Of a stretch of DNA of 64,000 nt, positions 87 to 56,612 are shown in pieces; positions within the stretch are counted from its first letter, which is position 1, and every line of letters begins with the position of its first letter. Origin of the DNA: the human T2T-CHM13v2.0 reference genome, Homo sapiens; assembly GCF_009914755.1 (NCBI RefSeq), contig NC_060944.1; one strand, written 5' to 3'. A program made the position numbers and the translations under genes. A model generated the notes under the pieces. It had not been told where the DNA came from and ran no database searches. It saw only the letters and a program-made list of their open reading frames with translations.

Positions 87-388
87 AATGATTCTCAGCC
101 AGGGGTGATTCTGCCCTTTTTTTTTTTTTCTTCCTTCTGCTTTTTGCAGAGCAGGGCTACCCCACAGGCAATGCGCCCGAAGTAGTTGATTCTGCTCTCT
201 AGGGATATTGGGCAATGTCTGGAGATATTTTGGGTTATCACAAATGGTTGAGATGGGGGAGGGTGCTACTAGCATCCAGTGGGTCAAGGCCGGGGATACT
301 GCAAAATAGTCCACAATGCTTAGCACAGCCCCCGCAACAAAGAATTATCCAGCCTAAAATGGCAATGGTGCTGAAATTGAGAACCCTG
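87..388 (+). mobile_element. MER20 hAT-Charlie MITE, interrupted by a short retroposed insert at 118-186
   Basis: ttctcagccaggggtgattctgc...gggcaatgtctggagatattttgggttatcaca...gtgctactagcatccagtgggtcaaggcc...ttgagaaccctg matches the recalled MER20 consensus end to end. Confidence 0.85.
118..186 (-). mobile_element. Short (~57 nt + A12) retroposed insert resembling an ERV1 (MER4-group) LTR R-region hairpin
   Basis: Minus strand ACTACTTCGGGCGCATTGCCTGTGGGGTAGCCCTGCTCTGCAAAAAGCAGAAGGAAG(A)12; TSD tgattctgccct 106-117 / tgattctgctct 187-198; TGCCTGTGGGGTAGCC matches the LTR fragment at 48501-48516 at 13/16. Confidence 0.75.
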
Positions 389-471
389 ATCTGGATCATT
401 TTAACTTTTATAAGGAGATAGGATTCAAGTATTATTTGCATAATTTAAAAAGGGCTGAAAAAACAATGATG

Positions 472-536
472 TGGCGGGGAGGAGTCTCTCTGAAACTATT
501 TTGGTCTGGGAGGCTGCCTGATTAAAAAAAAAAAAA
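472..536 (+). mobile_element. Short (~52 nt + A13) insert resembling a MER51/MER57-type ERV1 LTR R-region hairpin
   Basis: ggagtctctctgaaactattttggtctgggaggctgcctgatt followed directly by A13; degenerate TSD aaaaacaatgatg 459-471 / aaagacagggatg 534-546; family call from recall. Confidence 0.6.
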
Positions 537-544
537 GACAGGGA

Positions 545-1380
545 TGCTGTGATCCACCGTCCACCTTCCCTTCCCTCTGCAGGACACAGCAGGTATTCCC
601 CTAGCTGCCAGGAGTGTTAGCTGCTACTCCCTCACATTCTGATGAGTCCCTCTTCAGAAATTGCCCTGAGCTGAAGGAAGCTGCCTTGTTCAACAGCCTT
701 TCTCCTTGAGAAGCCTCTGCACTGTTGACATCATGCTTTGTAGCAGGGGTTGGGGGAAGTGTCCTGTGCCCTGTAGGACACGTGGCAGCATTCCTGGCCT
801 CTATCCACTAGATGCTAGCAGCCCCCTCTTTTTTTTTTTTTTTTTTTGAGAGAGTCTTGCTCTGTGCCCCAGGCCGGAGGGCAGTGGCATGATCTCGGCT
901 CACTGCAACCTCTGCCTCCAGAGTTCAAGCAATTCAATTCTCCTGCCACAGCCTCCGAAGTAGCTGGGATTACAGGCGCGCACCACCATGCCCAGCTAAT
1001 TTTTGTATTTTTAGTAGAGGTGGGTTTCACCATGTTGGCCAGGCTGGACCCCTTCTCCTATTAAAATAACCAAAAATATCTCTGAACATCACCAAATATC
1101 CTCTGGGAGGCAAAATTCTCCCCCTCCCTGCATTAAGAACCACTGATGTACCCAGTGCCTGGTTAATACAGCAGCACAAAGGCCCAGCCCCCTGACCTCA
1201 GTTTGGAGTATCTCTGAGGGCCATCTCAGGCTTTGTTGAGATTGCATCATAAATTCCTCTCTTTACCCAATCCTCCTTCCCTCTCCCCATCATAGGTGTT
1301 GTTTTCCAGAGCATTCTCCAATAAATATTCTGGTGCAAATCTCCCTCCCAGAGACTGTTCCTTGGGGCCACTGACCCAAG
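545..1380 (+). mobile_element. LTR16-like (ERVL) LTR, interrupted by a minus-strand MER20 (~700-1146) that contains a truncated Alu (~828-1048, -)
   Basis: gaaattgccctgagctgaaggaagctgcct...aaaggcccagccccct...caataaatattctggtgcaaatctcc; antisense MER20 motifs gtcctgtgccctgtagga...ctggcctctatccactagatgctagcagc. Confidence 0.6.
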
Positions 1381-48479: not shown

Positions 48480-48565
48480 AAAGTAAAGGAATGAAAGAAT
48501 GGCTACTTCATAGGCACAGCAGTAGCATGGGCTGCTGATTGGCTATTTTTATGGTTATTTCTTTC
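48480..48565 (-). mobile_element. MER41-like ERV1 LTR fragment (TATA-like box plus R hairpin) between two Alu 3' ends
   Basis: Minus strand aagaaataaccataaaaatagccaatcagcagccc...tgcctatgaagtagccattctttcattcctttactttc. Confidence 0.7.
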
Positions 48566-50215: not shown

Positions 50216-53888
<3,673 letters not shown>

Positions 53889-56483: not shown

Positions 56484-56511
56484 CTGTTTTCTTTGTTTTG
56501 TTTTTTTTTTT

Positions 56512-56612
56512 AATATGAAACACTTCATGAATTTGCATGTCATCCTTGCACAGGGGCCATGCTAATCTTTGTGTTATTCCAATTTTAGTATATGTACTGC
56601 AGCAGGGAGCAT
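56512..56612 (-). pseudogene. RNU6: Full-length poly(A)-tailed U6 snRNA retropseudogene
   Basis: aatatgaaacacttcatgaatttgcatgtcatccttgcacaggggccatgctaatctt...ttccaattttagtatatgtactgcagcagggagcat is antisense U6; T-rich tail 56487-56511; ACAGAGA box degraded; no upstream promoter. Confidence 0.95.

What the first reader, a model, noticed from the sequence alone, without database searches (positions are those of the whole stretch)
106..546. Candidate class of retroposed short TAR-like RNAs from ERV1 LTRs: two independent examples within 450 bp
Seen: two unrelated ~50-57 nt inserts share one architecture: a long hairpin, an oligo(A) tail joined just after the structure, no upstream AATAAA/ATTAAA at poly(A) distance, and flanking direct repeats (clear for one, degenerate for the other). 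An in-window LTR fragment (48480-48565, -) carries a related motif (TGCCTATGAAGTAGCC) about 30 nt downstream of a CATAAAAA TATA-like box, i.e. near where an LTR transcript starts. Established: LTRs integrate via integrase and normally polyadenylate downstream of their own signal; tail plus TSD is the L1 TPRT signature; HIV-1 makes short promoter-proximal TAR hairpin RNAs. Inference: ancient ERV1 LTRs produced discrete short hairpin RNAs (paused/terminated or nuclease-resistant, oligoadenylated) that L1 copied in trans. These would be fossils of an attenuation or small-RNA system hidden under generic LTR-fragment annotations. I cannot confirm novelty.
Basis: partly seen in the sequence, partly recalled or inferred. 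Interest (0 to 1): 0.78.

Follow-up and report, generated by a model that had tools for sequence, protein, structure and literature searches.

The report
Retrocopies of short LTR start-site RNAs
Both small inserts are LINE-1-made copies of 43-50-base capped hairpin RNAs that began at the transcription start sites of two ancient retroviral LTR families, so they preserve a roughly 60-million-year-old record of very short LTR transcripts.

Summary
Insert 1 (window 117-186, minus strand) is a clean insertion with a 12-bp target-site duplication inside an old DNA-transposon copy. Insert 2 (481-536, plus strand) has a 13-A tail but no convincing duplication.

Each insert belongs to a genome-wide family with two contexts: full LTRs, and short copies that lack U3 and carry an A tail.
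- Family 1: 19 of 100 sampled places are short tailed copies, and at least 42 such loci were seen.
- Family 2: 13 of 55 sampled places, and at least 30 loci seen.

Short copies start at one base, about 30 nt after the LTR's TATA box. In family 1, 17 of 18 carry an extra, untemplated 5' G, the mark of a copied cap. They end in a narrow band (+49..+54 for family 1, +40..+43 for family 2). That band lies 20-35 nt before the LTR's own poly(A) signal and next to no A-tract.

The RNAs fold into hairpins that start at +1. No covariation supports the folds, and no RNA data were available.

Family 1 is ERV1-class by its 4-bp duplications. Neither family could be given a Repbase/Dfam name. Divergence suggests about 55-75 million years. 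I found no description in print.

The parts
88..388 (+). Host: old non-autonomous DNA-transposon (MITE-like) copy, split by insert 1. Bounds are approximate.
   Evidence: Window 199-392 gave 1017 first-look candidates and 40 scored matches at 72-80% identity. The alignment of 11 copies is continuous across the insertion point.
106..117 (.). Target-site duplication of insert 1, copy next to the tail
   Evidence: Direct repeat D2, 11 of 12 identical with 187-198. The sequence is single in uninterrupted copies of the host element.
187..198 (.). Target-site duplication of insert 1, copy next to the 5' end
117..129 (-). A13 tail of insert 1. Base 117 is shared with the duplication.
130..136 (-). 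Seven A/G-rich bases between the unit and the pure A run. They match no LTR sequence.
   Evidence: row L001.
137..186 (-). Insert 1 unit: copy of positions +1..+50 of the R region of LTR family 1. It forms two hairpins.
   Evidence: 40 scored genomic matches. In register with LTR copies. Fold.
470..480 (+). Uncertain: either extra 5' bases of insert 2 or flank
   Evidence: 13 of 14 non-self relatives align only from window 480-487 on; one LTR copy (L036) aligns from 469.
481..523 (+). Insert 2 unit: copy of positions +1..+43 of the R region of LTR family 2. It forms one long 5' hairpin.
   Evidence: 15 genomic matches. Contexts. Fold.
524..536 (+). A13 tail of insert 2
48480..48565 (-). Fragment of a third, younger LTR family (U3 end with a TATA-like box, plus the start of R). 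Its first hairpin stem is related to that of family 1. It lies between two Alu pieces and is not itself a short retrocopy.
   Evidence: 693 candidates; 38 non-self matches at 87-93% identity, all spanning the whole fragment.

Best explanation
Both inserts are LINE-1 retrocopies, made by target-primed reverse transcription, of very short capped RNA polymerase II transcripts. These RNAs began at the start site of an LTR promoter and ended 43-54 nt later, just after a hairpin that starts at +1.

SHOWN
- The copies lack U3.
- They begin on the base that lies 30-33 nt after the TATA box.
- They usually carry one extra 5' G that the LTR does not encode.
- They end in a band a few bases wide, well before the LTR's poly(A) signal.
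- They carry A tails, and many have target-site duplications.

INFERRED
- The RNA 3' end came from promoter-proximal pausing and premature termination, with the hairpin protecting the released RNA.
- The RNA then acquired an A tail. This happened either by oligoadenylation or because the L1 enzyme switched templates from a poly(A) stretch.
- The many dispersed LTR promoters made this RNA abundant in the germ line about 55-75 million years ago.
For: FAMILIES
- Family 1: the anchor pattern has 560 matches, against 0 for the reversed control. All 100 listed places were examined: 65 LTRs with U3 and U5, 11 with U3 only, 5 with U5 only, and 19 short copies with an A tail. Fourteen further tailed loci were seen as pattern matches.
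- Family 2: 55 matches, control 0. The 55 split into 36 LTRs, 2 with U5 only, 13 short tailed copies and 4 others. Thirteen of 15 BLAST hits are short copies, and 6 more came.

5' END
- The base before +1 is G in 17 of 18 family-1 short copies. In 65 LTR copies it is T 48, C 7, A 7 and G 3.
- An extra G is reported at the 5' junction of full-length L1-mediated insertions and ascribed to the cap (PMC11702581, passages read).

3' END
- Family 1: +50 (7 copies), +51 (10), +52 (5), others (5), out of 27.
- Family 2: 10 of 13 copies end in +40..+43.

DUPLICATIONS
- 8 nt or more: 11 of 28 copies, against 23 of 756 mismatched pairs.
- 9 nt or more: 7 of 28 against 15 of 756 for family 1, and 5 of 14 against 11 of 182 for family 2.

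OTHER POINTS
- The empty-site equivalent for insert 1 is.
- No tail sits at the canonical site: 0 of 64.
- Folds: family 1 forms hairpins at 1-31 and 33-50; family 2 forms one at 1-38. z is -2.3 to -4.4.
- No alignment column separates short copies from LTR copies by more than 0.29 in base share. This points to many source LTRs rather than one master gene.
- Short copies and LTRs are equally diverged.
Against: - No RNA data of any kind were available. The start site is inferred from TATA spacing and the extra G.
- There is no covariation. Pairing is 86.4% and 93.2%, not above column shuffles, with 0 and 1 double changes. The hairpins therefore rest on thermodynamics alone, and the two window copies fold no better than many shuffles.
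- Duplications were found by script in only 25-39% of copies.
- In family 2 the extra G is not clear: G 5, T 4, A 4 of 13.
- In 12 of 27 family-1 copies, 2-19 mostly T-rich bases lie between the unit and the tail. These are unexplained.
- The samples were chosen by sequence anchors, so shares and ages are biased.
- How the tail arose is unknown.
- Dfam and RepeatMasker could not be consulted, so an existing annotation of these copies cannot be excluded.
Confidence: 0.65

Rival explanations
1. Same short RNA, but never adenylated. The L1 reverse transcriptase began on the poly(A) of an L1 or Alu RNA and switched template to the 3' end of the short LTR RNA, as proposed for U6/L1 chimeras (recalled). 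This is a rival only for how the tail arose.
For: One copy (L011) joins the unit directly to a 5'-truncated Alu. Extra bases lie between the unit and the tail in 12 of 27 copies. The unit contains no poly(A) signal.
Against: Only 1 of 29 examined family-1 copies carries a recognisable piece of another retroelement between unit and tail. The other extra stretches are too short to assign.
Confidence: 0.3
2. The 3' end was made by endonucleolytic cleavage of longer LTR transcripts at the base of the hairpin (Microprocessor-like, or trimming back to the stem), not by polymerase termination.
For: In family 1 the commonest ends (+50..+52) lie 0-2 nt after the last pair of the second hairpin.
Against: In family 2 the ends lie 2-5 nt or more beyond the hairpin, in unpaired sequence. 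The stems of 6-15 bp are shorter than typical Microprocessor substrates (recalled).
Confidence: 0.2
3. Position +50 is the virus's real poly(A) site. On this view the short copies are R-only relics of HERV-W-type processed pseudogenes, for instance after recombination between the two R copies.
For: HERV-W pseudogenes begin at R and end with R plus poly(A) (PMC5537654, passages read). One copy, L010, is R-U5 without U3.
Against: None of the 76 U3-bearing copies in the sample has a tail at +50, although 5'-truncated U3-R-tail copies should be the commonest product. AATAAA sits at about +85-90 in most LTR copies. There is no hexamer in the unit.
Confidence: 0.04
4. A SINE-like master gene transcribed by RNA polymerase III and derived from an LTR fragment.
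For: T-rich bases lie before the tail in 12 of 27 copies.
Against: An extra 5' G is present in 17 of 18 copies. No column separates short copies from LTR copies. The LTRs have no T-run after +50. Two unrelated families show the same architecture.
Confidence: 0.04
5. Chance: ordinary LTR fragments that happen to lie beside A-runs.
For: None beyond the weak flanking repeat of insert 2.
Against: The 5' base is fixed, the 3' band is narrow, and duplications exceed controls. The reversed patterns give 0 matches and there is an empty-site equivalent.
Confidence: 0.01

Closest known systems
HIV-1 TAR and the short promoter-proximal TAR transcripts (recalled; PMC1955452 and PMC4872094 seen only in a search listing)
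   Same: A hairpin that begins at +1 of R. Short RNAs that end just after it, far upstream of the poly(A) signal.
   Different: These are gamma-like or unclassified ancient LTRs, not a lentivirus. No trans-activator is known and no RNA has been observed. The evidence here is genomic copies only. Family 1 has two small hairpins rather than one long bulged one.
HERV-W processed pseudogenes made by LINE-1 (PMC5537654, abstract and passages)
   Same: LTR-promoted RNA copied by L1. The copies start at R, lack U3, and have a poly(A) tail and target-site duplications.
   Different: Those are full or 5'-truncated genomic RNAs that end at the canonical poly(A) site. These are 43-54-nt 5' pieces that end before the signal. 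That review calls HERV-W the sole HERV group mobilised by L1.
Retropseudogenes of small structured RNAs such as U6, Y RNAs, snoRNAs and 7SL (recalled; PMC4476161 seen in a listing)
   Same: Short structured RNAs without a poly(A) signal, copied by L1 with tails and duplications.
   Different: Those sources are polymerase III or intron-processed RNAs from host genes. Here the source is a capped polymerase II start-site RNA from a viral promoter.
Stem-loops at the start of R in gammaretrovirus LTRs (PMC2664473 discussion, passages read; the MLV R-region papers seen only in its reference list)
   Same: A predicted stem-loop at the very start of R in gamma-like LTRs.
   Different: Those were described as expression elements of full-length viral RNA. 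No short RNA or retrocopy of them is reported there.

Membership tests
LINE-1-mediated (target-primed) retrocopy | 3' A tail not encoded by the parent | tested here: met
   A13 in both window inserts. Tails in 19 of 100 and 13 of 55 sampled places. The LTRs have no A-tract there.
LINE-1-mediated (target-primed) retrocopy | Target-site duplication of about 7-20 bp flanking unit plus tail | tested here: met
   Insert 1 has 12 bp, 11 of 12 identical, with an empty-site equivalent. Families: 11 of 28 against 23 of 756, and 5 of 14 against 11 of 182. Insert 2 has none found.
LINE-1-mediated (target-primed) retrocopy | A-rich start of the duplication (TT/AAAA target) | tested here: inconclusive
   The first two bases of 12 detected duplications are AA 5, AG 3, TA 2, TT 2. 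Several copies sit just after Alu tails.
LINE-1-mediated (target-primed) retrocopy | Extra 5' G on full-length copies of capped RNA | tested here: met
   Family 1: G in 17 of 18 short copies against 3 of 65 LTR copies. Family 2 is unclear: 5 of 13.
ERV1 (class I, gamma-like) LTR, family 1 | TG...CA ends and a 4-bp target duplication of solo LTRs (the class rule is recalled) | tested here: met
   Seven of 26 LTRs with both ends found have identical 4-mers, and none extends to 5 or 6 bases. Chance would give about 0.1.
ERV1 (class I, gamma-like) LTR, family 1 | Gamma-type gag/pol in the internal part | tested here: inconclusive
   Eight open pieces from the first 2.5 kb after one 5' LTR gave no Pfam match below E 0.05. 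The primer-binding site in 3 copies fits tRNA-Lys(CTT) best, 14 of 18, among the 33 tRNA kinds compared. One of these ties with two other tRNAs.
ERV1 LTR, family 2 | 4-bp target duplication | tested here: inconclusive
   Only 2 LTRs had both ends in view. One has CTGG on both sides and one has none.
TAR-like promoter-proximal element | Stable hairpin starting at +1 of R | tested here: met
   Ten well-kept copies give dG -20 to -29 kcal/mol and z -2.3 to -4.4. The window copies are weaker.
TAR-like promoter-proximal element | Structure kept by compensatory change | tested here: not met
   0 and 1 double changes, and pairing not above shuffles. The copies decay neutrally and were chosen by sequence anchors, so the test has little power.
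TAR-like promoter-proximal element | Short transcripts and a trans-activator that relieves them | not testable with these tools
   No RNA or protein-binding data. Short RNAs are inferred only from the retrocopies.
Ordinary processed pseudogene / canonical polyadenylation | AAUAAA-type hexamer 10-30 nt before the tail | tested here: not met
   There is none in either unit. The LTR signals lie 20-35 nt beyond the tail point. 0 of 64.
Known RNA family (Rfam 15) | Match to a curated model | tested here: not met
   Only Alu-related matches appear in the flanks. The sole match overlapping a unit is sub-threshold: PK-BYV at window 111-154, E 6.4, 14.7 bits against a gathering score of 50.

The most novel reading that the evidence does not exclude
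Ancient LTR promoters shed large amounts of 43-54-nt capped hairpin RNAs, the products of promoter-proximal termination. That would be a TAR-like checkpoint in gamma-like retroviruses. LINE-1 archived these RNAs in the genome. On this reading such copies are a general fossil record, and the start sites and stopping points of polymerase on extinct viruses, perhaps on other promoters too, can be read directly from DNA.
Probability: 0.35. Interest if true: 0.85.

Novelty: new variant of a known kind. Interest (0 to 1): 0.72.

Why it matters
- L1-made copies of host small RNAs and of HERV-W genomes are known. Copies of start-site-proximal short capped RNAs from LTR promoters are not described in anything I could find.
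- If the reading holds, tens to roughly a hundred loci per LTR family now filed as 'LTR fragments' are retrocopies of a distinct RNA species.
- They fix the start site of extinct LTR promoters to the base.
- They show that a hairpin-ended short transcript was abundant in the ancestral germ line.
- They allow early termination on retroviral promoters outside the lentiviruses to be studied from sequence.
- They also extend L1-mediated mobilisation of ERV transcripts beyond HERV-W.

Tried and rejected
- **Rfam:** no family matches the units.
- **Covariation:** uninformative or negative.
- **Naming the LTRs from print:** four sequence strings gave 0 papers.
- **Naming from a core gene:** 8 open pieces from the first 2.5 kb of one provirus gave no usable Pfam match.
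- **Naming from the primer-binding site:** only a weak best fit to tRNA-Lys(CTT). tRNAs of 33 kinds were compared; Thr, Tyr and several Arg, Ser and Leu isoacceptors were missing because the cuts were shortened to 10 kb.
- **Third LTR family (window 48480-48565):** only 3 tailed loci by exact pattern. Two tails lie right after its own AATAAA and one is short, so it gives no clear third example.
- **Dating from Alus next to short copies:** the order of insertion could not be settled.
- **Shared upstream sequence that would indicate a longer composite element:** rejected. The 27 similar pairs of 861 are Alu ends by eye.
- **Single master gene:** rejected.
- **Not used:** protein homology searches, structure prediction, viral or microbial contig scans. 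I did not ask for supplementary files.
Full report
WHAT IS IN THE WINDOW

Insert 1 lies on the minus strand. Read 5' to 3', it is a 50-nt unit (window 186 down to 137), then seven A/G-rich bases (136-130), then thirteen A (129-117). It is flanked by a 12-bp direct repeat at 106-117 and 187-198, identical at 11 of 12 positions.

The surrounding sequence, about 88-388, is a copy of an old non-autonomous DNA transposon. Window 199-392 gave 1017 first-look candidates in the genome, and the 40 scored matches are 72-80% identical. In an alignment with 11 other copies, every one runs straight across the insertion point and holds the repeated 12 bases once. That is as good as an empty site. Insert 1 is therefore an insertion with a target-site duplication.

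Insert 2 is on the plus strand. Its relatives align from window 481. The unit is 481-523 and is followed by thirteen A at 524-536. My own search found no repeat of 9 nt or more. Bases 470-480 may belong to the insert. Neither unit holds an AATAAA or ATTAAA before the tail.

BOTH INSERTS BELONG TO FAMILIES WITH TWO KINDS OF CONTEXT

Searching the reference genome with insert 1 gave 40 scored matches. Their flanks show two classes. One class lies inside complete LTRs: a TATAAATA box sits upstream, the LTR continues downstream, and an AATAAA follows at about +85-90. The other class is short. It begins at the same base, has unrelated sequence upstream, and runs into an A tail after about 50 nt.

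A 27-nt anchor from the unit has 560 matches at up to 3 mismatches, against none for the reversed control. I fetched all 100 listed places, those with 0 or 1 mismatch, and classed them by script:
- 65 LTRs with both U3 and U5
- 11 with U3 only
- 5 with U5 only; by eye, 4 of these have U3 remnants and one, L010, truly lacks U3
- 19 short copies with an A tail, two of which are a segmental duplicate pair

If that share held for all 560 matches, there would be about a hundred short copies. This is an extrapolation. Counted directly, 28 independent short copies were examined at both ends. A further 14 were seen only as pattern matches covering the unit's 3' part plus an A-run.

Family 2 behaves in the same way. 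A 32-nt anchor has 55 matches, control 0, and all were fetched. They class as 36 LTRs, 2 'U5 only' that hold U3 remnants by eye, 13 short tailed copies and 4 others. One of the 'others', L143, is by eye a short copy with a tail at about +47. Of the 15 BLAST matches to insert 2, 13 are short tailed copies and 2 are LTRs. Six more tailed loci came from an exact pattern. That makes 24 copies examined and 30 seen.

WHERE THE SHORT COPIES START

In family-1 LTRs the unit's first base lies 33 nt after the first T of TATAAATA. In family 2 it lies 30 nt after ATAAAT. In both, the preceding base is a pyrimidine and the first base is G. This is where a TATA-driven promoter should start; that spacing is established knowledge, and here it is only inferred.

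The base just before +1 is G in 17 of 18 short family-1 copies from the anchored sample. In the 65 LTR copies it is T 48, C 7, A 7 and G 3. The LTR does not encode this G. [quoted passage not shown] The simplest reading is that the template was a capped RNA whose first base is +1, copied to its very end.

In family 2 the picture is unclear, with G 5, T 4 and A 4 of 13. The RNA itself starts with GG, which blurs the count.

WHERE THEY END

I measured the last LTR-matching base against a natural LTR copy.
- Family 1: +46 (1 copy), +49 (1), +50 (7), +51 (10), +52 (5), +53 (1), +54 (2). That is 27 copies; one further copy had no tail by the script's rule.
- Family 2: +38 to +47, with 10 of 13 copies in +40..+43.

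The window copies end at +50 and +43. The LTRs have no A-tract at these points.

The LTRs' own signals lie beyond the tails: AATAAA at about +85-90 in family 1, and AATTAAA about 20 nt after the end point in family 2. Of 64 exact genomic copies of the family-1 signal region, none has a run of ten A within 3-35 nt. In the samples of 100 and 55 places, no copy runs from +1 to the canonical site and then into a tail. No U3-bearing copy has a tail at +50.

These facts exclude three alternatives: ordinary polyadenylation, internal priming on an encoded A-tract, and the idea that +50 is the virus's true poly(A) site.

THE SIGNATURE OF L1

Besides the tails, duplications of 8 nt or more were found next to 11 of 28 family-1 copies. 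Mismatched upstream/downstream pairs gave 23 of 756. With a second rule (9 nt or more, no A-run required) the figures are 7 of 28 against 15 of 756, and 5 of 14 against 11 of 182 for family 2.

Many remaining copies have an Alu inserted at the tail, or decayed flanks. Several short copies sit just after the A tail of an Alu. This explains the 27 of 861 pairs of upstream flanks that resemble each other. No other shared upstream sequence exists, so the unit is not part of a longer composite element.

STRUCTURE

Well-kept family-1 copies fold into a hairpin over positions 1-31 and a second over 33-50. The free energy is -22 to -29 kcal/mol and z is -2.3 to -4.4 (0-4 of 200 shuffles as good). Family-2 copies fold into one long hairpin over 1-38, followed by 5-6 unpaired bases, with z -2.3 to -3.9.

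The decayed window copies give z -1.93 and -0.71.

Pair counts on 97 and 55 copies show 86.4% and 93.2% of cells paired. This is far above the slid registers but not above column shuffles, and there are 0 and 1 double changes. So there is no covariation support. The test is weak here, because the copies decay neutrally and were picked by sequence anchors.

ONE MASTER OR MANY SOURCES

No alignment column differs by more than 0.29 in base share between the 18 short and 78 LTR copies. Short copies also carry the variants seen among LTRs at +44..+50. They were therefore drawn from the general LTR pool, not from one diverged master gene.

FAMILY AND AGE

Family-1 LTRs are about 450-495 bp and run from TG to CA. 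In 7 of 26 copies with both ends found, the four flanking bases are identical on the two sides, and never five or six. Chance would give about 0.1. A 4-bp duplication is the class I (ERV1) rule; this is recalled.

Four of 30 LTR ends continue into a shared internal sequence. In three of these, the 18 bases after the LTR fit tRNA-Lys(CTT) best, at 14 of 18, among the 33 tRNA kinds compared. One of the three ties with other tRNAs. This is weak evidence.

Eight open pieces from the first 2.5 kb after one 5' LTR gave no usable Pfam match. Four sequence strings were found in no paper. I could therefore not give either family its Repbase/Dfam name.

For family 2, about 425 bp, only two LTRs had both ends in view. 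One has a 4-bp duplication.

Pairwise differences are as follows:
- 0.26 among short family-1 copies, on the 23 positions outside the anchor
- 0.245 among 45 LTRs of the matching subfamily, on the same positions
- 0.22 on 95 further LTR positions
- 0.22 for family-2 LTRs

Half the corrected distances is 0.13-0.16. At 2.2e-9 substitutions per site per year (a recalled rate) this is about 55-75 million years. It comes with wide error from small site numbers, CpG decay and anchor bias.

Short copies and LTRs are equally old, so the RNAs were copied while, or soon after, the LTR families spread.

MECHANISM AND ITS LIMITS

It is shown that an RNA spanning +1 to about +43-54 of two unrelated LTRs existed in the germ line. 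It was very probably capped. It was copied by L1 dozens of times per family. The expected R-length polyadenylated RNA left no copies in my samples.

The remaining steps are inferred. The position of the 3' ends fits promoter-proximal pausing and premature termination of polymerase II (established for cellular genes and for HIV-1; recalled). Cleavage or trimming back to the hairpin cannot be excluded.

The origin of the tail is open. One possibility is oligoadenylation. Another is template switching, as in one copy (L011) that is joined to a truncated Alu. The odd, mostly T-rich bases between unit and tail in 12 of 27 copies are unexplained. Nothing here shows an attenuation function or a trans-activator.

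COMPARISON AND NOVELTY

The architecture resembles HIV-1 TAR short transcripts. The copying resembles that of HERV-W pseudogenes and small-RNA retropseudogenes. A review calls HERV-W the sole HERV group mobilised by L1 (PMC5537654, abstract).

Four full-text searches with different term sets, plus one sequence-string search, found no description of retrocopied start-site RNAs from LTRs. The library lacks most subscription journals, and I could not see Dfam or Repbase, so prior knowledge cannot be excluded.

I rate this a new variant of a known kind: L1 retrocopies, from a new class of template.

Noticed in passing
L010 (G000:C15:67843853-67844901): A family-1 R-U5 copy without U3. It starts at +1 with extra Gs and runs to the normal LTR end with no primer-binding site after it. 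It is preceded by an inverted copy of about +27..+45, which looks like a snap-back.
   Followed up: partly
L011 (G000:C5:79706627-79707675): Family-1 unit +1 to about +68 joined directly to a 5'-truncated Alu. It looks like a template-switch chimera.
   Followed up: partly
L060, L093, L095, L130: In 4 of the 100 family-1 places an Alu 5' end lies about 15 nt after the LTR's AATAAAAG. That A-run appears to be a repeated L1-endonuclease target.
   Followed up: partly
family-1 short copies, e.g. L003, L014, L016, L019, L021, L028, L047: Two to nineteen mostly T-rich bases, matching neither the LTR nor the tail, lie between the unit's end and the A run in 12 of 27 copies.
   Followed up: partly
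window 88-388: Old MITE-like DNA-transposon copy with terminal inverted repeats. There are over a thousand first-look candidates in the genome, and scored copies are 72-80% identical. By recall it may be a hAT-type MER family; this is not verified.
   Followed up: partly
window 783-1051 and 961-1461: An Alu on the minus strand, giving SRP and mir-1268 matches in Rfam. The RefSeq element 'H3K27ac hESC enhancer' overlaps it. Window 106-546 is not in the list of masked repeats of 100 nt or more.
   Followed up: no
window 48480-48565 and its relatives: Third LTR family, younger (87-93% identity, 693 candidates). By exact pattern, two loci have tails right after its AATAAA and one has a short tailed copy.
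   Followed up: partly
L124 / L125 (chr17, two places): The same short copy with identical flanks at two loci: a segmental duplication carrying a retrocopy.
   Followed up: no
window 50477-51273 and 56509-56612: RPL35AP and RNU6-497P are annotated in the same window. They are two more L1-type retrocopies and were not examined.
   Followed up: no
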